DNA from: a virus
Taxonomy: Duplodnaviria > Caudoviricetes
Virus record (IMG/VR): IMGVR_UViG_3300009593_000019
Span: 1 to 61,109 of that record
DNA: 61,109 nucleotides
Direction: 5' to 3' (one strand)
Under the pieces are notes generated by a model. The model was not told the DNA's origin. It ran no database searches and worked only from the letters and a program-made list of their open reading frames with translations. Below, piece by piece: positions 30,459 through 49,425 of the stretch (position 1 is its first letter; the number at the start of each line of letters is the position of its first letter). The translations under genes were made by a program, and so were the position numbers.

Positions 30459-31157
30459 ATGGCTAAAGAATTTAAGTTTGTTGAGTTGAATAAAGACTTA
30501 CTGCCTAAAACAAAAGGCAAAAGACAAGACGGTATCCGTTTTTACGAAGTAAACGGACATAACTATCCTTCTGTAACCTCAATTCTAGGTATCAGAAAAA
30601 CAGAAGGTCTAAAGAAATGGCGAGAGAGTATTGGTGAGAATGTCGCTAACTTTGAAATGCGAAGAGCAGCCTCTCGTGGTAAAGCAACTCACAATCTAGT
30701 AGAGAATTATCTTAAAGGTGAAGCACCGAGTGAAAGAGGTGTATTACCTCTAGGTCTATTCAGGTTGATGAAACCATACCTTGATAACATTGGTGATATA
30801 CACCTTGTTGAAGAGATAATGTATTCAAAAGAATTAACACTTGCCGGTCAGGTAGATTGTGTCGCACAATATAGAGACAAATTGTCCGTTATTGATTTCA
30901 AAACAGCGAACAAAGAAAAGATTGAAGAGTGGGTAGACAATTACTTCTTACAAACTACTGCTTATGCAATAATGTATGAGGAGATATTCGGTAAACCGAT
31001 TGAACAAATTGTCGTACTTATCGCAGGTGAAGATGGCTCTATGCAAGAATGGGTTAAGAATCCACAAGATTACAAACCTGAACTAAAAAAATCTATTGAA
31101 AACTTTTATAAATATTACGAGAATAAAAAGTTAGAAACAGACAAACAGACAGCATAG
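30459..31157 (+). CDS. PD-(D/E)XK exonuclease (Cas4-like phage exonuclease)
   Basis: YPSVTSIL, RG..TH, LAGQVDC, IDFKT and YFLQ..AYA motifs. Confidence 0.85.
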   Translation: MAKEFKFVELNKDLLPKTKGKRQDGIRFYEVNGHNYPSVTSILGIRKTEGLKKWRESIGENVANFEMRRAASRGKATHNLVENYLKGEAPSERGVLPLGLFRLMKPYLDNIGDIHLVEEIMYSKELTLAGQVDCVAQYRDKLSVIDFKTANKEKIEEWVDNYFLQTTAYAIMYEEIFGKPIEQIVVLIAGEDGSMQEWVKNPQDYKPELKKSIENFYKYYENKKLETDKQTA

Positions 31158-31205
31158 ATTAAGAAGGTGATTTGATGTCCTTTCTACTTTAACGAAAAGG
31201 ACAAT

Positions 31206-31541
31206 ATGAAAAAACTACTAATCTTTGTTATGTTATTGATGACAAGTTTAGTATATGCAGACCATAGAGAAGATATATTTTATTCATCACAGGTCCCGAT
31301 GTTGTGTACAAGTGCTCCTCAAATGAACGAGTTTTTGGACCACAACAATATGAAACCATTAAGTATTGGTTTCGGTCGTAATCAAGGAACGCCTGATGGT
31401 GATATAGTTTATGCCATAACTCACTGGTACAATGCAGAAGATGATATGTTTATGGCAGTAATAGAAACACCGGCACAAGGTGAGAAATGTATTGTGTATG
31501 GAATTTATAATTACAAGGAAGTAAATGAAAAAAATAATTAG
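31206..31541 (+). CDS. Secreted hypothetical protein
   Basis: Signal peptide ending VYA; two Cys residues. Confidence 0.7.
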   Translation: MKKLLIFVMLLMTSLVYADHREDIFYSSQVPMLCTSAPQMNEFLDHNNMKPLSIGFGRNQGTPDGDIVYAITHWYNAEDDMFMAVIETPAQGEKCIVYGIYNYKEVNEKNN

Positions 31542-31719
31542 TATTATATTTTTAGCAGGACTATTAAGTGCGTGTGCTATCAATGAACCTAGAGTTTCTT
31601 TTGGTAAGAAATGTGTAGAGAAAGACAACAATGTTGTTTACTCATATGTTTGGTTATACGATAAAGAAGCAGGTTTAAATGCAAACGAGAAGACTTGCGA
31701 AAAAATTAAAAAAGATTAA
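31525..31719 (+). CDS. Small lipoprotein
   Basis: Lipobox LSAC. Confidence 0.7.
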   Translation: MKKIISIIFLAGLLSACAINEPRVSFGKKCVEKDNNVVYSYVWLYDKEAGLNANEKTCEKIKKD

Positions 31720-31957
31720 TCGTTGATGGTGGTGTAATAACCGGACTGGACTCGGGTGCAACTCCCGACACCTCCACCATAAACACATTAAGGTGTGCTT
31801 ATGGGGGGTGTGTTAGGATTGACAGACGACTAAAGACCTTCGGAGATTGATAGTTGGCGAACTTAAACGCAATTTTAAATGGCAACAATAATTTTGCCCT
31901 TGCTGCCTAGTTAATAGGTAACGGAGTTAGTGAAGTACTTGGCAACAGAAACTTCAC
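31720..31957 (+). ncRNA. ssrA: Two-piece (circularly permuted) tmRNA, alphaproteobacterial type; tag (A)GNNNFALAA
   Basis: T-arm plus CACCTCCACCA (ends 31779) precedes GGGGGTG (31804), forming a 7-bp acceptor stem with G3.U70. Tag ORF 31881-31910 ends ALAA. 3' hairpin contains TGGCAACAGAA. Confidence 0.9.
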
Positions 31958-31978
31958 ATTTTCTATAGGAGAAAGAAA

Positions 31979-32257
31979 ATGGATACGGTTTATCTAATAG
32001 TGGCGATGTTATTGAACATAGAAACAGGTATCGTAGAACCTCGCCATCACGCAGCTTACAAATTTGACACATTACCAGAATGTATGCAATTCGTAAATTC
32101 ACAATACGAAGGCTTATATGGTGGTCTGGTATATAAACTACAAGAAGAAGGTAAGGTAACAACACAAATAATCAATATAGGTTGTGCCGAAATGTCTGAA
32201 CAAGACGCATTAGATTTTATGAAAGAGCACGAAATCAAACCTGGTGTAGGTGCTTGA
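31979..32257 (+). CDS. Hypothetical protein (hydrophobic N-terminus, F...C...C pattern)
   Basis: AGGAG RBS. Confidence 0.7.
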   Translation: MDTVYLIVAMLLNIETGIVEPRHHAAYKFDTLPECMQFVNSQYEGLYGGLVYKLQEEGKVTTQIINIGCAEMSEQDALDFMKEHEIKPGVGA

Positions 32258-32282
32258 CAAACTAACTATAACCTGATATAGT
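32247..32282 (+). promoter_or_regulatory. sigma70-type promoter (TAGGTGCTTGACAA class)
   Basis: TTGACA-17-TATAGT; the -35 overlaps the upstream stop codon. Confidence 0.8.
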
Positions 32283-32288
32283 AAGAGA

Positions 32289-32501
32289 ATGAATAGTAAA
32301 CAATTTAGTTTAGAAATAGAAAACTACAAGAAAGAACATAAAGGCATATCTTATATGGATGCCATTGTTCATTATTGTGAAGAGAGAAGTATTGATACGG
32401 CAACGGTCGGTCCTTTAATTAACAAGGCTTTAAAAGAAAAGGTTGCTTTAGAGTGTCAGAAATTAAATCTGTTACCTAAAACAAGCGAGTTGCCTATATA
32501 A
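32289..32501 (+). CDS. gp33: Late promoter transcription accessory protein (gp33-like)
   Basis: FS.EIE...YMDAIVHYCEE..I...LI.K.LKEK pattern; adjacent to gp59 and gp32. Confidence 0.88.
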   Translation: MNSKQFSLEIENYKKEHKGISYMDAIVHYCEERSIDTATVGPLINKALKEKVALECQKLNLLPKTSELPI

Positions 32502-33106
32502 TGTATGGAGGATTTGATGTATTTAAAATCTGGTTGGGAATAAAATTACACTTCACAACAGATACTTACGATTATATTACCTATGGTGGTAAAGTTAATT
32601 GTAAGATAGAGACTTTTACAAAACGAAATGATAGGTACTTCTTTCATAAACTTTCTAAAAAATATAACGCAGAAGAAGCAGTTGATTTCTTTGTGGCAAA
32701 CTTTTTGCATAAAGACAAAGCCTGGATTGGAAATCTTGCTAAGTCTGATGGCGCTGATATATACTTGGATTACAAGAAGCGTAAAGATAGTTTTACTTAT
32801 CAGTTTAGGAATGAGTGTAATAGTATTAGGCTTAATATGGATAATAAGCGCCTGTCTTTTGATGACCTTTTTATGGTTAATGGAGGTCAACATCCAATCT
32901 TTTTCAAACTTCTACTATCTAAACAAATATGTTATGAAACTCTTGTGGTCTTTGAAGAGTTATTGGGATTCATTAGAAGATGGGATAAAGAGATTGAGGA
33001 AAAAGTAGTATGGCCAATATATGCAAAACGAATAAAGAAGTTTACGCCATTTTTACGATACAATAGAACAGAAACTAAATTGATTATGAAAGAGATTTTT
33101 AATTGA
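32501..33106 (+). CDS. gp59: Helicase loader (gp59-like)
   Basis: KLHF...YDY..Y.GK...F.KR.DRYFF.KL...FFVANF...WIG pattern; synteny. Confidence 0.88.
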   Translation: MYGGFDVFKIWLGIKLHFTTDTYDYITYGGKVNCKIETFTKRNDRYFFHKLSKKYNAEEAVDFFVANFLHKDKAWIGNLAKSDGADIYLDYKKRKDSFTYQFRNECNSIRLNMDNKRLSFDDLFMVNGGQHPIFFKLLLSKQICYETLVVFEELLGFIRRWDKEIEEKVVWPIYAKRIKKFTPFLRYNRTETKLIMKEIFN

Positions 33107-46182: not shown

Positions 46183-46434
46183 CTAAAAAAAATATTCAAC
46201 ATCGCCCCAACTATCAGACTTTACTTGTATAATAGTCATAGGGTCATTTACTTCATTATTATTCATTGCTTTCTCAATGTCTTCTTTAGTCTCAACTATC
46301 AAAGGCATTTCAGCATTTGCGTCATATGGGTCAACGAATGTCGTTCCCGTAGCGTCAAGTAATAGTTCAGTATTATCTTTTTTCAAAGCATAACCTTCTT
46401 GTTCATAAACCATTGTTGGTATTGGATGACTCAT
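46183..46434 (-). CDS. Hypothetical acidic early protein
   Basis: AAGGAG RBS before ATG 46434; sigma70 promoter upstream. Confidence 0.7.
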   Translation of the reverse strand: MSHPIPTMVYEQEGYALKKDNTELLLDATGTTFVDPYDANAEMPLIVETKEDIEKAMNNNEVNDPMTIIQVKSDSWGDVEYFF

Positions 46435-46463
46435 AATATACTCCTTTTCTTTATCATACTTAC

Positions 46464-46492
46464 ATACTATCAAACTCTACACTCCTTGTCAA
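46464..46492 (-). promoter_or_regulatory. sigma70-type early promoter (leftward)
   Basis: GCTTGACA-17-TAGTAT with TGn extension on the minus strand. Confidence 0.75.
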
Positions 46493-46501
46493 GCACTTTT
46501 T

Positions 46502-46509
46502 TATAAATA
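46502..46509 (+). promoter_or_regulatory. T4-type late promoter TATAAATA
   Basis: Exact consensus, back-to-back with the leftward early promoter. Confidence 0.7.
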
Positions 46510-46544
46510 TTTTCAGTAATATTAACACTCAACTGGAGCGAGTA

Positions 46545-46607
46545 ATGGTTGAAATACTTACTATATTAGCGTTAGCAGTAAATCTGTTAACAAGTCTTTT
46601 ACGCTAG
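46545..46607 (+). CDS. Possible 20-aa hydrophobic peptide MVEILTILALAVNLLTSLLR
   Basis: GGAG RBS; first ORF after the late promoter. Confidence 0.35.
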   Translation: MVEILTILALAVNLLTSLLR

Positions 46608-46679
46608 AATTTGTGAATCTTATACATAAGTGTGTTGAGACTTCCAGAGAATAGCTAAGCTAAGGAACAGGACACACAA

Positions 46680-46934
46680 ATGACTTTCAAGGAACGACTA
46701 CAGCGCATACGAGGAAAGGCGCAAAAATCCATCACTACTGATAATCTCGTTGACATTTCTGTTGACATATTGATATTAGTCTTTGATGTATTAAGTTCGC
46801 CTATCTTAATTGTAATGAGAGTTGTACGATTTTTAATAAGAAGGCATATCGTTAGATACCTTAAAAGGTTTATTAAGTGGTTTCTCCATTCTGTCTGTAA
46901 GATAGATAATACGCCTTTAGATTGGAAAGATTAA
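46680..46934 (+). CDS. Hypothetical membrane protein
   Basis: AGGA RBS; hydrophobic core. Confidence 0.6.
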   Translation: MTFKERLQRIRGKAQKSITTDNLVDISVDILILVFDVLSSPILIVMRVVRFLIRRHIVRYLKRFIKWFLHSVCKIDNTPLDWKD

Positions 46935-46935
46935 A

Positions 46936-47235
46936 ATGATTAATGGATTGTGGTTAGTTGATAGAATTGAATACCTAATAGGGAGAGGGCGACTCTTGTT
47001 CTCTATGTGTTTGCGATTGTTAACTTGGGCCGGTATAACGGTAATGGTTGCGTATGGTTTAGCGTTTCTTTATGTTGTGATAATCGGGACTTATACTGAA
47101 AGAAGCGAATTTAATAAGATTGTTGGTTCTTCTATGTTAGATGAATTTTACTATTTTATATTACCAGCATTATTAATAACTAGTCGTAAATATATAAATA
47201 GTTTTATTCGTTCAACCATTTTTGGTCGGAAGTAA
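46936..47235 (+). CDS. Hypothetical membrane protein
   Basis: Two TM segments; the 3' end overlaps the late promoter and riboswitch. Confidence 0.5.
   Translation: MINGLWLVDRIEYLIGRGRLLFSMCLRLLTWAGITVMVAYGLAFLYVVIIGTYTERSEFNKIVGSSMLDEFYYFILPALLITSRKYINSFIRSTIFGRK
47193..47200 (+). promoter_or_regulatory. T4-type late promoter TATAAATA driving the riboswitch leader
   Basis: Exact consensus 8 nt before riboswitch P1. Confidence 0.75.
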
Positions 47236-47283
47236 GGCACTCGCCTGAAGGAACGCACCTAACTTGAAACATAGGAGGGTGTT
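47207..47283 (+). ncRNA. Glutamine riboswitch (glnA / glutamine-I type) with SD-proximal expression platform
   Basis: P1 CGUUC/GAACG, P2 ACCA/UGGU, GGAAGUA...GAAG E-loop, P3 AGGC/GCCU; CACC and CCUA can pair with GGUG and UAGG around the SD. Confidence 0.85.
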
Positions 47284-47478
47284 ATGAATAGACATACTTA
47301 TTTACTCTCCACTTATAGAAAGAAGAAACAAATAGAGCGTAAAGAAAAGGCTCTTGCGTCTTCTCGTACAGAAGTGGATATAAATGGTAATGGTACTTCT
47401 GGTTATACACTTAAAGAAGGTGTTAACAAAAACAAAGTACTTGGCCATAGAGTAGTCAAATCAACCGATAATTGGTAA
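47284..47478 (+). CDS. Small basic protein under glutamine riboswitch control
   Basis: AGGAGG RBS; 64 aa, Lys/Arg-rich. Confidence 0.8.
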   Translation: MNRHTYLLSTYRKKKQIERKEKALASSRTEVDINGNGTSGYTLKEGVNKNKVLGHRVVKSTDNW

Positions 47479-47483
47479 TATTT

Positions 47484-47503
47484 TGGGGGAGTTAAATCTC
47501 CCC
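47484..47503 (+). terminator. Hairpin after the riboswitch-controlled gene
   Basis: GGGGAG/CTCCCC stem; no adjacent U-tract. Confidence 0.4.
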
Positions 47504-47514
47504 TAAATACTTTT

Positions 47515-47841
47515 ATGAGTAATTTAATAAACTTAACAGATAACGCAGTATCACATCTACAAACTTTAGCAAAAGAACATAACAAAAAATATGTTCGTTT
47601 AGAAGTTAAAGGTGGTGGTTGTGCTGGGTTTAAATACGACTGGAAGTTTGAAGATGAAGCAGATACTAATGATGAGGTTATCTTACACGATAACTTTACA
47701 TTGTTGGTTGATAAGTCTAGCATATTAATGTTAGCAGGTATGACTATAGAATATCGTAAGGAGATATTTGGGTCATTTTTAGAATTAAAGAATCCCAACG
47801 CAACAAGTAGTTGTGGTTGTGGAGAAAGTTTTGGAGTATAA
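47515..47841 (+). CDS. iscA: A-type Fe-S cluster carrier (HesB/IscA/ErpA family)
   Basis: VKGGGCAGFKY and NPNATSSCGCGESF signatures. Confidence 0.92.
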   Translation: MSNLINLTDNAVSHLQTLAKEHNKKYVRLEVKGGGCAGFKYDWKFEDEADTNDEVILHDNFTLLVDKSSILMLAGMTIEYRKEIFGSFLELKNPNATSSCGCGESFGV

Positions 47842-47842
47842 A

Positions 47843-48100
47843 ATGAATTATGATAGAATAAAACAAGAAGAGTTGTTATATTCAGAATCTTGTGGGTCTT
47901 GTATACCTATAGAAAAAGACCACAAATATCAAAGTGAGTTGTTAAAGAAACAATTACAAATGATATTAGATGATGAAAGAGGCGACAACGATTTAGATAA
48001 AAAGATAAAGATATTAGAAACACAAAATAAGATATTACAAGCGGAAAAGAAGTTTCTTGCCGATACATTAAAAGAACACGGCATATTGACAATGAAGTAA
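47843..48100 (+). CDS. Hypothetical coiled-coil protein with CGSC motif
   Basis: GGAG RBS before ATG 47843. Confidence 0.6.
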   Translation: MNYDRIKQEELLYSESCGSCIPIEKDHKYQSELLKKQLQMILDDERGDNDLDKKIKILETQNKILQAEKKFLADTLKEHGILTMK

Positions 48101-48114
48101 TTATGTTGTATAGT
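48086..48114 (+). promoter_or_regulatory. sigma70-type promoter
   Basis: TTGACA-17-TATAGT ahead of the oxygenase gene. Confidence 0.7.
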
Positions 48115-48134
48115 AATTATTGGAGTGAATTAAA

Positions 48135-48941
48135 ATGACAAAATTTAGAGAACAAACCGTAATACCTCAAATAGTACATCCGAAGATAAACGGAGAAGTA
48201 TTATATCCTTTTGGACCACCTGTCTATCGTACAGAATTAGATACAAAGATTGTTGATATGCTGATAGCAGAAGGTCAACGAACAAGAGAACAAAAAGATT
48301 TAGACCATAGATTAAAACTAGCAGGTAATATGAAGTCTGGTACTTCTGTTCTATTTCCTGCAGGTCCTGATAAAGATGTTAGAAACAGAGCAGACCAAGC
48401 AATCGTTCAAAAAGTATTTGAGTTTTTTGAAATACTACAATCACAATATGGTAAAGATTGGCCTAATATAGAAAAGATGATGTTAGGTAATAGTGGTGGT
48501 ATGGGTGCATTAAGATTACAACAATTATGGATTAACTTTCAACAAGCAGGTGATTATAATCCTTTACACGACCACGGTGGTCTTTTTAGTTTTGTTATAT
48601 TTGGTGATATAGATGAAAAGATATTTACAGAAGATGTACCACCTACAAATACTAATATAGCAGGTAAACTAATATTTCATTATGGTGAACAGATTACAAA
48701 ACTACAATCAAATAGTTTTTCAGTAGAACCATATAAAGGTTTGATGTATGTTTTTCCTGCGGCTTTACAACATACGGTACCACCATACTTTAAAGAGTTT
48801 GAAAGAATTAGTATAAGTGGTAACTATGTACTAGAACAAAATCAACCACAATCAAAACTTAATCCTGTTAAGTTAAATTTAGAAGATGATAAAGTAGCAC
48901 AAATGATGATGAATCCTAATACGGACCAGAATAACATATGA
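48135..48941 (+). CDS. Putative 2OG-Fe(II) oxygenase
   Basis: WINFQ..GDYNPLHDH, FPA.L.H.V.P and RISISGN motifs. Confidence 0.85.
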   Translation: MTKFREQTVIPQIVHPKINGEVLYPFGPPVYRTELDTKIVDMLIAEGQRTREQKDLDHRLKLAGNMKSGTSVLFPAGPDKDVRNRADQAIVQKVFEFFEILQSQYGKDWPNIEKMMLGNSGGMGALRLQQLWINFQQAGDYNPLHDHGGLFSFVIFGDIDEKIFTEDVPPTNTNIAGKLIFHYGEQITKLQSNSFSVEPYKGLMYVFPAALQHTVPPYFKEFERISISGNYVLEQNQPQSKLNPVKLNLEDDKVAQMMMNPNTDQNNI

Positions 48942-49126
48942 TAAAAGAATATTTAAAAATTATAGGTTTAGGTATACTTGCAATACTATTTCATTGGAAG
49001 ACAATTGCATTTTATGGATTTATGGCGTTTGCTTTTGTACTAATGATGTTAGAACAAGGTATTGTTGCGGCTCTTTTCGTAATACCTATTCTATACTTCT
49101 TACGACTTATAGGTAAGTTTCTATGA
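48938..49126 (+). CDS. Small membrane protein
   Basis: Highly hydrophobic; overlaps both neighbours. Confidence 0.65.
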   Translation: MIKEYLKIIGLGILAILFHWKTIAFYGFMAFAFVLMMLEQGIVAALFVIPILYFLRLIGKFL

Positions 49127-49425
49127 CACCAGAAGAATTACAAGAAACAATTGACAAAATTAAATTCATACTAGACGATAAAGTTGCACCTAGTGTAGCT
49201 GCACACAATGGTAAGATTAACTTTCTTTCTTTTTCACAAGAAGGAGTATTAAAATTACAAATGGCAGGAAGTTGTGCTGGGTGTGCTATGTCTCAACTTA
49301 CTTTAAAACAAGGTGTTGAAAGTATGATGAAACATTATTGTCCAGAAGTCAAGCAAATCATTTCAGAAGATGATACACAAGCTGCTGAACAAGGTTACAC
49401 ACCTTACGCACCTACCTTAAAATAG
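49123..49425 (+). CDS. nfuA: NifU/NfuA C-terminal domain Fe-S carrier
   Basis: V.P.VAAH.G.I...LQMAGSCAGC.MS..TLK.GVE signature. Confidence 0.85.
   Translation: MTPEELQETIDKIKFILDDKVAPSVAAHNGKINFLSFSQEGVLKLQMAGSCAGCAMSQLTLKQGVESMMKHYCPEVKQIISEDDTQAAEQGYTPYAPTLK

What the first reader, a model, noticed from the sequence alone, without database searches (positions are those of the whole stretch)
47193..47478. Late-promoter-driven glutamine riboswitch controlling a small basic protein in a probable non-cyanobacterial phage
Seen: TATAAATA (47193-200) is followed almost immediately by CGUUC-A-ACCA-UUUU-UGGU-C-GGAAGUA-AGGC-ACUC-GCCU-GAAG-GAACG-CACC. Next come an AGGAGG SD that can pair with CACC/CCUA and a 64-aa K/R-rich ORF (MNRHTY...KKKQIERKEKALASSRTEVDI). 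Known: this three-way junction with a GGAAGUA/GAAG E-loop is the glnA (glutamine-I) riboswitch, which in cyanobacteria switches on the glutamine synthetase inactivating factor gifB (IF17). Inference: the phage senses host glutamine late in infection and makes a peptide, loosely reminiscent of the basic IF7/IF17 factors, that may modulate GS, nitrogen flux or lysis timing. The other host clues here point to Alphaproteobacteria, where I know of no such module.
Basis: partly seen in the sequence, partly recalled or inferred. Interest (0 to 1): 0.9.

Follow-up and report, generated by a model that had tools for sequence, protein, structure and literature searches.

The report
Phage glutamine riboswitch gating a microprotein
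A marine phage related to viruses of the ocean bacterium SAR11 carries a genuine glutamine-sensing RNA switch at the start of a late transcript, which most likely allows a conserved 64-residue basic protein of unknown function to be made only when the infected cell is rich in glutamine.

Summary
Rfam's Glutamine riboswitch model (RF01739) matches 47207-47259 at 56.1 bits (cut-off 35). TATAAATA lies 8 nt upstream. An SD, a 64-codon ORF under purifying selection and a terminator-like hairpin follow.

The contig is a T4-like phage closest to Pelagibacter phages Mosig and HTVC008M.

In 97 phage leaders the aptamer stems covary, and so does a helix pairing the 3' tail (CACCU) with the SD region. 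This fits the published glutamine-ON translational model.

Among the 80 closest homologues of the ORF in IMG/VR, 68 have the full switch ending at the start codon. Three keep only a remnant, one is cut by the contig end and 8 have none.

The same switch precedes at least 24 clusters of small, nearly all basic, peptides in viral contigs. About a sixth of the unique peptides are of the cyanobacterial DUF4278/IF17-like kind. This ORF is not.

Its function is unknown. Homologues without a switch sit beside membrane and coiled-coil genes near an endolysin or the terminase in some pelagiphages, but not in most sampled.

Glutamine riboswitches in this phage group are already published (Buchholz 2022), there read as controlling tmRNA. 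Here the tmRNA lies 15 kb away.

This scan found the same cassette before on other DNA (e1-5667491, e1-5667497).

The parts
47193..47200 (+). T4-type late-promoter-like octamer TATAAATA. It would place the transcript start at about 47206, one base before the aptamer.
   Evidence: Sequence. 15 of 16 octamers in the window are on the + strand. (NN)TAAATA lies 5-13 nt upstream of the aptamer in 68 of 106 unique related cassettes, against 1.7% background. The window encodes a homologue of the late-transcription coactivator. The transcript start itself is not shown.
47207..47259 (+). Glutamine riboswitch aptamer (Rfam RF01739, glnA motif), full length
   Evidence: 56.1 bits against a gathering score of 35, E 1.1e-9, model 1-53/53. 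Same result.
47209..47213 (+). P1, 5' strand CGUUC (pairs with 47251-47255)
   Evidence: Rfam alignment. Invariant, or CG to UA, in 97 phage leaders; these positions were fixed by my search pattern and so are not informative.
47215..47226 (+). First hairpin ACCA-UUUU-UGGU
   Evidence: Four pairs, all with changes on both sides among 97 leaders; 95.5% of cells paired.
47227..47234 (+). Conserved junction / E-loop strand CGGAAGUA
   Evidence: Matches the Rfam consensus. Fixed by my search pattern in the other loci.
47235..47246 (+). Second hairpin AGGC-ACUC-GCCU
   Evidence: Four pairs, all with changes on both sides; 86.2% of cells paired.
47247..47255 (+). E-loop strand GAAG and P1 3' strand GAACG
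   Evidence: Rfam alignment.
47256..47260 (+). 3' tail CACCU. C47256 corresponds to the conserved C that forms the long-range G-C pair on glutamine binding. In the unbound state the tail pairs with 47277-47281.
   Evidence: The C directly after P1 is invariant in 97 of 97 leaders although my pattern did not require it. Helix with the SD region: 76.1% of cells paired, and pair 63-99 has 28 changes on both sides, CG to UA. The model comes from the Klahn 2018 passage.
47273..47281 (+). Shine-Dalgarno AGGAGG (47273-47278), overlapping the tail-complementary GGGUG (47277-47281)
   Evidence: Sequence. The MFE fold pairs 47255-47260 with 47277-47282. Covariation. 78 of 103 leaders have at least 5 consecutive tail-leader pairs, against about 45 with permuted tails.
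47284..47478 (+). 64-aa basic protein gene ('family A'; PHROG 32989; net charge +8)
   Evidence: ORF. dN/dS 0.08-0.45 in 11 comparisons. 56 homologues. At least 150 clusters at 50% identity. PHROG 32989, E 2.3e-11. AF2 model: helix 3-27 plus three strands, pLDDT 74.
47482..47517 (+). Terminator-like hairpin (10 pairs, 5 G-C) with a U-rich tail; closes the cassette
   Evidence: Similar hairpins follow 22 of 105 related cassettes, against 2 in shuffles.

Best explanation
This is a self-contained late-gene cassette of about 320 nt, made of a promoter, a riboswitch, a microprotein gene and a terminator. It lies in a T4-like phage of the SAR11/OM43 myophage group.

Proposed mechanism:
1. Late in infection, transcription starts about 6 nt after TATAAATA, at the first bases of a type-1 glutamine aptamer (inferred).
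2. Without glutamine, the 3' tail CACCU (47256-47260) pairs with GGGUG (47277-47281). That stretch overlaps the Shine-Dalgarno sequence, so initiation at ATG 47284 is blocked (supported by covariation).
3. With glutamine bound, the conserved C47256 is taken up by the aptamer's long-range G-C pair. The inhibitory helix melts and the 64-aa protein is translated. This ON logic is taken from the cyanobacterial gifB switch and was not tested here.

The product is a real, conserved, cytoplasmic basic protein with an N-terminal helix and a small beta sheet. It has no known relatives of known function.

My best guess for its role, at about 0.2, is a regulator of the end of infection (lysis timing). 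The reason is that switch-less homologues of this family, and of the Mosig-type peptide family, occupy the same slot. That slot lies between a membrane protein and a TM-plus-coiled-coil gene, near an endolysin or the terminase, in several pelagiphage podoviruses.

The confidence given below is for the regulatory mechanism, not for the protein's role.
For: Aptamer:
- RF01739 scores 56.1 bits against a cut-off of 35.
- Both hairpins covary in 97 phage leaders: 89.3% of cells paired against 75.9% in shuffles, and 0 of 500 shuffles reach the observed value.
- The linchpin C is invariant in 97 of 97 leaders.
- 17 of 17 pattern-found instances in 16 loci pass Rfam's cut-off, at 47.1-64.9 bits.

Expression platform:
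- The tail-SD helix is paired in 76.1% of cells, with 28 CG-to-UA double changes at one pair.
- 78 of 103 leaders have at least 5 consecutive tail-leader pairs, against about 45 with permuted tails.
- The published model for gifB is the same (Klahn 2018, PMC6212724, passage).

Linkage to the gene:
- Of the 80 best IMG/VR homologues, 68 have a full switch plus platform (60-84 bits) ending at the start codon.
- Mosig and Melnitz have the same layout with other small basic ORFs.

Late promoter: (68 of 106 cassettes) and a gp33-like coactivator at 32289-32501 (42% identity, E 1e-20).

Gene reality: dN/dS is 0.08-0.45.

Presence in RNA libraries: one contig identical over 47234-47474, and a relative's contig over 47174-47540.

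Lineage: gp5 is 54.7% and gp6 62.5% identical to Mosig, and the tmRNA is of the alpha type.

Lysis lead.
Against: - No ligand binding, transcript start or reporter data exist for this RNA. The ON logic is transferred from cyanobacteria.
- RNA-library contigs do not prove transcription, because DNA can be present in such libraries.
- The octamer count in the window is not above chance, and 38 of 106 related cassettes lack the motif.
- 24% of cells in the tail-SD helix are unpaired, and 25 of 103 leaders have fewer than 5 consecutive pairs. The loci were found with a pattern that fixes P1 and the E-loop, so those positions say nothing.
- Eight of the 80 homologues have no switch, and the podovirus and siphovirus homologues have none. 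The link between switch and gene is therefore optional.

Against the lysis guess:
- PHROGs and Pfam name none of the neighbours as holin or spanin.
- In Kolga the gene lies among tail genes.
- In 46 of 61 usable IMG/VR loci of the P0177 subfamily the context is HTVC027P-like, without membrane neighbours. Only 12 of 61 have a TM protein downstream.
- In the window itself the cassette lies in an accessory island between gp5 and gp6.
Confidence: 0.8

Rival explanations
1. The peptide is a phage analogue of the cyanobacterial glutamine synthetase inactivating factors (IF7/IF17). High glutamine switches on an inhibitor of host GS.
For: - The same riboswitch class controls gifB/IF17 and IF17-like DUF4278 proteins in cyanobacteria (PMC6212724, passages).
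- 18 of 109 unique peptides behind viral switches are YRG-type. Five of five tested hit DUF4278, three of them above the cut-off.
- 107 of 109 unique peptides carry a net positive charge.
- SAR11 glnA is induced during pelagiphage infection (PMC12753301, passage).
Against: - No Pfam hit, so not DUF4278.
- No PDB sequence relative and no fold match.
- The family occurs without any switch in podoviruses and a siphovirus.
- Buchholz 2022 states that the OM43 host of Melnitz has no glnA, yet Melnitz carries the switch with a small basic ORF.
Confidence: 0.12
2. The protein is a small nucleic-acid- or ribosome-binding factor, with a basic helix and an SH3/KOW-like beta unit, that tunes late transcription or translation when nitrogen is plentiful.
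For: - Net charge is +8.
- The AF2 model is a helix plus a three-stranded sheet.
- The weak top Foldseek rows are three YbaB-type nucleoid proteins, KOW/SH3-like domains (Kin17) and Sso7d, at E 1-5.
- The resemblance of the G-x-N-K-G-K stretch to a KOW motif is recalled from memory, not tested.
Against: All fold matches are insignificant: E at least 0.48 and best Z 3.2. There is no Pfam match at E up to 0.1.
Confidence: 0.15
3. The riboswitch controls the phage tmRNA (ssrA), as proposed for Melnitz, rather than the small ORF.
For: In Melnitz the aptamer lies at the 3' edge of the annotated ssrA feature. In one relative (L070) the cassette sits at the position that the tmRNA occupies in the window.
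Against: - In the window the tmRNA (31672-31960) is 15 kb upstream of the switch.
- The switch is followed within about 25 nt by an SD and an ORF in 116 of 122 terminal aptamers. Four of the six exceptions are cut by contig ends.
- In Melnitz an unannotated + strand 32-codon ORF with the same platform follows the aptamer.
- A 3'-located aptamer has no known way to control an upstream RNA.
Confidence: 0.03
4. The aptamer is an inactive relic, or the match is fortuitous, and the ORF is expressed constitutively.
For: Natural remnants exist in which only the 3' half survives (L167, L168, L170), and 8 homologues have no switch.
Against: The window's copy is full length and scores above the Rfam cut-off. 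All conserved positions are kept, and the helices covary across relatives.
Confidence: 0.04

Closest known systems
Type-1 glutamine riboswitch of the Synechocystis sp. PCC 6803 gifB (IF17) leader (Klahn et al. 2018, PMC6212724; passages read)
   Same: Same Rfam family (RF01739) and same three-stem junction with an E-loop. The same conserved C lies 3' of P1, and its neighbours can pair with the ribosome binding site. The cargo is likewise a small basic protein, with glutamine-ON translational logic.
   Different: The element is phage-borne and follows a T4-type late promoter, where gifB is under NtcA repression (repression stated in a PMC7760959 passage). The cargo is not DUF4278/IF17. The host lineage is SAR11-like, not cyanobacterial.
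Glutamine riboswitches reported in Methylophilales phage Melnitz, Pelagibacter phage Mosig and pelagimyophage metagenomic genomes (Buchholz et al. 2022, PMC9004378; passages read)
   Same: Same phage group and same riboswitch class. I re-found the Mosig (50 bits) and Melnitz (52.8 bits) copies.
   Different: The paper reads the switch as part of, or controlling, ssrA and speculates about curli-pore lysis. Here the switch is 15 kb from the tmRNA, and in all three phages a small basic ORF with an SD-sequestering platform follows it directly. The three ORFs belong to different peptide families.
Glutamine-II / Downstream-peptide motif (RF01704) with DUF4278 'YRG' peptides of marine picocyanobacteria (Weinberg 2010, PMC2864571; Klahn 2018; passages read)
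   Same: A short conserved peptide gene lies directly behind a glutamine aptamer. YRG/DUF4278 peptides also follow RF01739-type aptamers on viral contigs.
   Different: The window's aptamer is type 1, and RF01704 did not match at E up to 1. The peptide lacks the YRG repeats.
PHROG 32989 / small hypothetical proteins of Pelagibacter podoviruses and siphovirus Kolga (e.g. HTVC168P gp47, HTVC027P gp53, HTVC019P, Gjalp gp28, Kolga gp9)
   Same: Homologous protein family: PHROG E 2.3e-11 and a shared central G-x-N-G-T motif.
   Different: These copies have no riboswitch. They lie in late regions next to membrane and coiled-coil genes, tail genes or GroES.

Membership tests
Glutamine riboswitch, type 1 (Rfam RF01739, glnA motif) | Covariance-model score at or above the curated gathering score | tested here: met
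   56.1 bits against 35; full model 1-53
Glutamine riboswitch, type 1 (Rfam RF01739, glnA motif) | Three-stem junction (P1 plus two hairpins) supported by covariation | tested here: met
   Both hairpins have 4 of 4 pairs with changes on both sides in 97 phage leaders; slid controls fall to 31-52% paired. P1 was fixed by the search pattern and is uninformative.
Glutamine riboswitch, type 1 (Rfam RF01739, glnA motif) | Conserved E-loop nucleotides GGAAGUA / GAAG | tested here: met
   Present at 47228-47234 and 47247-47250
Glutamine riboswitch, type 1 (Rfam RF01739, glnA motif) | Conserved C directly 3' of P1 that forms the long-range G-C pair on ligand binding | tested here: met
   C47256. Invariant in 97 of 97 leaders without being required by the pattern. 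Its role is taken from the Klahn 2018 passage citing Ren 2015; the pair itself cannot be observed here.
Glutamine riboswitch, type 1 (Rfam RF01739, glnA motif) | Selective binding of L-glutamine | not testable with these tools
   Needs in-line probing or ITC
Glutamine riboswitch, type 1 (Rfam RF01739, glnA motif) | Expression platform: the 3' tail pairs with the ribosome binding site (translational ON switch) | tested here: met
   The helix of columns 60-65 with 98-104 is 76.1% paired, with compensatory changes. Permutation control. MFE fold. Regulation itself is not tested.
GS inactivating factors IF7/IF17 and IF17-like proteins (Pfam DUF4278, PF14105) | Match to DUF4278 / YRG repeats | tested here: not met
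   0 Pfam families at E up to 0.1 for the 64-aa protein. As a control, five YRG peptides from other viral cassettes do hit DUF4278.
GS inactivating factors IF7/IF17 and IF17-like proteins (Pfam DUF4278, PF14105) | Binds and inactivates glutamine synthetase | not testable with these tools
T4-type late promoter | TATAAATA element with the start about 6 nt downstream, in a phage with gp55/gp33-type late machinery | tested here: inconclusive
   The octamer is present, and its position is conserved in 68 of 106 cassettes. A gp33-like coactivator is present. gp55 was not looked for, the start is not mapped, and the octamer count in the window is not above chance.
Holin-associated lysis regulators (antiholin-like) | Encoded within a lysis cassette next to holin, endolysin or spanin genes | tested here: inconclusive
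   Membrane and TM-plus-coiled-coil neighbours in HTVC168P, HTVC019P, MedDCM-S46-C10, Gjalp and (for family B) HTVC103P. An endolysin lies two genes away in HTVC023P. No holin or spanin family is matched. The context is different in Kolga, HTVC027P and 46 of 61 IMG/VR loci.

The most novel reading that the evidence does not exclude
The cassette is one of many interchangeable 'glutamine-gated late microprotein' modules that move between accessory islands of marine T4-like phages. Families A (this ORF) and B (Mosig-type) are cytoplasmic regulators of the holin/spanin machinery. On this reading these phages set lysis timing, or another end-of-infection decision, by the glutamine level of a host (SAR11) that may lack this switch; I could not scan SAR11 genomes. 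If so, a riboswitch would serve as a phage's own nutrient sensor for the lysis decision.
Probability: 0.15. Interest if true: 0.8.

Novelty: new member of a known kind. Interest (0 to 1): 0.5.

Why it matters
Riboswitches encoded by phages are rare, and for this one the regulated gene had been misassigned. The only paper I found on this phage group ties it to tmRNA.

Three results define a concrete and testable unit. The switch sits at the first bases of a late transcript. Its tail covaries with the SD. It gates small basic proteins of many unrelated families on at least 119 viral contigs.

Mosig can be grown on HTCC1062 and carries such a cassette. The question 'what does a SAR11 phage do differently when its host is nitrogen-rich?' can therefore be asked at the bench.

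If the products act on lysis or on nitrogen enzymes, this links nutrient status to viral mortality of the ocean's most abundant bacteria.

Tried and rejected
- DNA search of 46600-48200 against 50,697 phage records (blastn) found no match.
- Pfam found nothing for the ORF at E up to 0.1.
- A PDB sequence search with the family profile gave only E 1.3 and 1.5.
- Foldseek against PDB and BFVD gave nothing at E up to 0.001; the best values were 0.99 and 0.48.
- VIA-align against 48,161 chains gave a best Z of 3.2.
- The ESM Atlas returned only unnamed viral clusters, at scores of 0.84-0.85.
- The window at E up to 1 showed no second riboswitch and no RF01704 match. A HOTAIR_2 row (22 bits against a cut-off of 60) is chance.
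- Pfam and PHROGs did not name the podovirus neighbour genes as holin or spanin. One depositor annotated one of them as DUF3154. My recollection that this family is a holin family was not confirmed by my own scan.
- RNA-library contigs: I saw no cover of 46600-47173 or beyond 48003 in the four runs laid. This is no evidence for transcript ends.
- Terminator-like hairpins follow only 22 of 105 cassettes, so the terminator is not a general part of the module.
- Whether SAR11 genomes carry RF01739 could not be asked directly. A sample of 151 genomes of the class of an Alphaproteobacteria MAG gave 2 matches.
- Complex prediction was not used. No SAR11 GlnA or allowed holin-like partner was at hand, and a stand-in would not have changed my odds.
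- Supplements were closed. Table S3 of PMC12753301 may give the temporal class of HTVC027P gp53, and Table S1 of PMC9004378 lists the riboswitch-bearing contigs. I could not see either.
- Not in print, as far as reach: I found no description of the peptide cargo of phage glutamine riboswitches.
- Papers: only passages (find mode) were read of PMC9004378, PMC12379486, PMC2864571, PMC9964418, PMC9602691, PMC6212724, PMC7760959, PMC7029224, PMC12753301 and PMC12695635. PMC6698751 was seen as a search listing only. Ren et al. 2015 was not seen and is cited through the Klahn passage.
Full report
THE OBSERVATION. TATAAATA is at 47193-47200. P1 is CGUUC/GAACG (47209-47213 with 47251-47255). The two hairpins are ACCA-UUUU-UGGU (47215-47226) and AGGC-ACUC-GCCU (47235-47246). 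The junction strands are CGGAAGUA (47227-47234) and GAAG (47247-47250). The tail CACC(U) begins at 47256, AGGAGG is at 47273-47278, and a 64-codon ORF runs from 47284 to 47478.

Rfam's Glutamine riboswitch model (RF01739) matches 47207-47259 over its full length, at 56.1 bits against a gathering score of 35 and E 1.1e-9 (repeated). It is the only riboswitch match in the window, even at E up to 1, and the glutamine-II model does not match.

The octamer alone is not more frequent than chance in this 34% G+C window: 16 matches against 11.2 +/- 3.65. However, 15 of the 16 lie on the coding strand.

WHAT THE CONTIG IS. The window is a whole IMG/VR viral record of 61,109 bases, estimated 42% complete. 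It encodes T4-type genes: gp5, gp6 and other baseplate proteins, class I ribonucleotide reductase and a primase-like protein.
- gp5 is most like that of Pelagibacter phage Mosig (54.7%), then HTVC008M (37.8%) and the OM43 phage Melnitz (38.2%).
- gp6 gives the same order: 62.5%, 53.3% and 52.1%, with cyanophages at 40% or less.
- The window holds a permuted tmRNA that scores best with the alphaproteobacterial model.
- It also encodes a homologue of Melnitz's annotated late-transcription coactivator (32289-32501; 42% identity, E 1e-20).
So 'non-cyanobacterial, SAR11-type myophage' is well supported, although the host is inferred.

THE SWITCH IN RELATED DNA. With the window, Mosig and Melnitz this gave 129 aptamers in 122 loci, 7 of them the first of a tandem pair. 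All 17 instances in the 16 loci that I re-scanned pass Rfam's cut-off, at 47.1-64.9 bits.

I aligned 97 of the 103 unique leaders, leaving out six with leaders longer than 92 nt.
- Both hairpins show changes on both sides at every pair.
- Over the whole drawn structure, 89.3% of cells are paired against 75.9% in shuffles (0 of 500 shuffles reach this). Sliding the partners lowers pairing to 31-52%.
- P1 and the E-loop were fixed by my pattern and carry no weight.
- The C directly 3' of P1 was not fixed, yet it is invariant in 97 of 97 leaders.

EXPRESSION PLATFORM. Klahn et al. 2018 (PMC6212724, passage) propose the following for gifB. The conserved C after P1 and its neighbours pair with the ribosome binding site. 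Glutamine binding recruits that C into a long-range G-C pair and so melts the inhibitory helix.

Here CACCU (47256-47260) can pair with GGGUG (47277-47281), which overlaps the SD. The MFE fold draws this hairpin.
- Across the 97 leaders the helix is paired in 76.1% of cells.
- One pair switches between C-G (39), U-A (27) and U-G (8), which gives 28 changes on both sides.
- 78 of 103 leaders have at least 5 consecutive tail-leader pairs, against about 45 when tails are permuted among leaders.
- Mosig-type leaders use CUCUUU against AAGGAG in another register. In the alignment these count as unpaired.
I take this as good comparative support for a translational switch. The ON direction is carried over from the cyanobacterial experiments.

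PROMOTER AND CASSETTE ENDS. In 68 of 106 unique cassettes, (NN)TAAATA lies 5-13 nt upstream of CGUU, with a mode of 6 nt and 8 nt in the window. Of these, 25 have the full TATAAATA. The motif occurs in 1.7% of background 30-nt windows, and 38 cassettes lack it. With the start about 6 nt after the octamer (recalled for T4), the RNA would begin at about 47206, one base before the Rfam match.

A terminator-like hairpin (47482-47507, followed by a U-rich tail) comes 3 nt after the stop codon. Such hairpins follow only 22 of 105 cassettes.

Contigs from two metatranscriptome libraries lie on the unit. One is identical over 47234-47474. One, from a relative with 35 differences, covers 47174-47540. 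This shows presence in RNA libraries, not transcription.

THE GENE. The ORF is under purifying selection: dN/dS is 0.08-0.45 against 11 relatives.
- It has 56 homologues in the word-indexed search.
- It matches PHROG 32989, of unknown function, at E 2.3e-11.
- At least 532 viral contigs encode a relative.
- In cellular genome collections it appears only on 9 short MAG contigs (911-10,409 nt) of unrelated phyla. I read these as mis-binned phage DNA.

Among the 80 closest viral loci, results with my model of switch plus platform were as follows:
- 68 have a full match (60-84 bits) ending at the start codon.
- 1 is cut by the contig end.
- 3 keep only the 3' strand of P1, the tail and the SD helix.
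- 8 have an ordinary leader.

More distant homologues have no switch. These occur in Pelagibacter podoviruses, in the siphovirus Kolga and as a split copy in HTVC008M.

The AF2 model (pLDDT 74, pTM 0.43) is a helix (3-27) followed by three strands. No fold or sequence relative of known function was found.

WHAT PHAGE GLUTAMINE SWITCHES CONTROL. Of 122 terminal aptamers, 116 are followed by an SD and an ORF of at least 15 codons. Four of the six exceptions are cut by contig ends. The 109 unique peptides (16-120 aa, median 44) fall into 24 clusters, and 107 of them have a net positive charge.
- The window's family has 18 unique members.
- The Mosig-type family has 14.
- Melnitz's 32-aa type has 3.
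- YRG-type peptides total 18. Five of five tested hit DUF4278, three of them above the cut-off.
So the cyanobacterial cargo type is a minority, and the window's protein is not of that type.

The cassette moves. In most relatives it lies, as here, between gp5 and the gp6 block. In L070 it lies where the window has its tmRNA. In Melnitz it abuts the annotated ssrA feature, and there the + strand 32-codon ORF behind it is not annotated.

This argues against the published reading that the switch controls the tmRNA (PMC9004378, passages). In the window the two are 15 kb apart.

FUNCTION OF THE PROTEIN. This is the weak part. The lead is synteny.
- In HTVC168P, HTVC019P and MedDCM-S46-C10 the homologue lies between a membrane protein and a 121-aa protein with an N-terminal TM segment and a long coiled coil. 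A 70-aa protein follows, close to the terminase.
- In HTVC103P the Mosig-type peptide occupies the same slot, in front of homologues of those two downstream genes (59.5% and 54.3% identity; the same PHROGs, 20984 and 24646).
- In HTVC023P the Mosig-type peptide is followed by a TM-plus-coiled-coil protein and then an M15 endolysin (PHROG 894).
Two unrelated riboswitch cargos thus replace each other next to lysis-like genes. Both families hit only Pelagibacter phages among isolates: 16 of 17 records for family A (the last is an uncultured Mediterranean phage) and 4 of 4 for family B.

Against this lead:
- No neighbour matches a named holin or spanin family.
- Kolga has the gene among tail genes.
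- HTVC027P has it between a basic 92-aa protein and a 77-aa protein beside GroES.
- In a sample seeded with P0177, 46 of 61 usable loci are of the HTVC027P type, and only 12 of 61 have a TM protein downstream. That sample is dominated by one lineage.
I therefore hold the lysis-regulator reading at about 0.2 and the GS-inhibitor reading at about 0.12. The latter is weakened by the reported absence of glnA in Melnitz's host.

COMPARISON AND NOVELTY. The RNA is a regular member of RF01739. Its presence in T4-like cyanophages (PMC9964418 and PMC9602691, passages) and in Mosig, Melnitz and pelagimyophage genomes is in print. An earlier survey had found none (PMC7029224, passage).

In the papers I could search I did not find four things: the small-protein cargo, the late-promoter placement, the covarying SD-sequestering tail, or the link to switch-less homologues in other pelagiphages.

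This scan has already reported the same 64-aa cassette on other DNA with the same reading (e1-5667491 and e1-5667497).

As a side result, RF01739 matched in 2 of 151 genomes sampled from the class of an Alphaproteobacteria MAG. One match is on a 911-nt phage-like contig. The other is chromosomal, in a 1.6-Mb genome upstream of a circularly permuted ATP-grasp gene.

VERDICT. This is a genuine and well-formed riboswitch cassette: a new member of a known kind, with an uncharacterised cargo. Interest is moderate.

Noticed in passing
window 31672-31960, with 30459-33106: A permuted two-piece tmRNA that scores best with the alphaproteobacterial model (91.2 and 98.6 bits). Its neighbourhood (PDDEXK-type exonuclease, tmRNA, gp33-like coactivator at 32289-32501, helicase loader at 32501-33106) mirrors the ssrA locus of Melnitz. 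ARAGORN reported no tmRNA or tRNA in the window.
   Followed up: partly
window 46936-47235: A 99-codon ORF with one predicted TM segment runs through the late-promoter octamer and ends inside the aptamer, using the UAA of GGAAGUAA. It has no PHROG or Pfam family, and no homologue turned up in the related family-A loci, including the closest one, L105. It may be spurious or strain-specific.
   Followed up: partly
window 47515-49425: Directly after the cassette come an A-type Fe-S carrier (Fe-S_biosyn, E 4.5e-19), a 2OG-Fe(II) oxygenase and a NifU-like protein. A 62-aa ORF with two predicted TM segments lies at 48938-49126.
   Followed up: partly
L003 2415-2586 (Pelagibacter phage HTVC008M, unannotated gap): A copy of the same small-protein family, without a riboswitch, whose reading frame changes within a run of A. 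The N-terminal 22 codons and the conserved C-terminal part lie in different frames. It is not annotated in the record.
   Followed up: partly
L167, L168 and L170, about 50 nt before the ORF start at 2501: Natural remnants of the switch. The 3' strand of P1, the tail and the SD-pairing helix are kept, while the 5' part of the aptamer is replaced by unrelated sequence.
   Followed up: partly
L220 1501-1551 (- strand; genome G009, contig C4): A chromosomal RF01739 match (59.7 bits) in a 1.6-Mb genome sampled from the class of an Alphaproteobacteria MAG. It lies about 45 nt upstream of a 468-aa circularly permuted ATP-grasp protein (PF14403, E 1.7e-153). I did not see this cargo in the passages I read.
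   Followed up: partly
proteins P0064 and P0090: Two metagenomic proteins (194 and 204 aa) join an S-adenosylmethionine decarboxylase domain (PF02675, checked for P0064 only) to a C-terminal copy of the 64-aa family. This may be a real fusion or a merged gene call.
   Followed up: partly
L010 1882-2532, L019 4319-4683, L022 3748-3835: On these contigs, manA RNA and/or 'freshwater-2' RNA motifs lie on the same strand a few hundred bases downstream of the glutamine cassette. L013 carries PhotoRC-II. Some cassette-bearing contigs, including the family-A locus L010, may therefore be cyanophage-like rather than SAR11 phages.
   Followed up: no
L305 1099-1270 (Melnitz MZ577097.1, about 46398-46567): The published Melnitz riboswitch is followed on the + strand by an unannotated 32-codon basic ORF with an SD-sequestering tail. 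The record instead annotates a 33-codon ORF on the opposite strand.
   Followed up: partly
L022, L063, L078, L092, L109, L114, L117: Tandem glutamine aptamers about 10 nt apart precede one small ORF (7 first-of-tandem instances).
   Followed up: no
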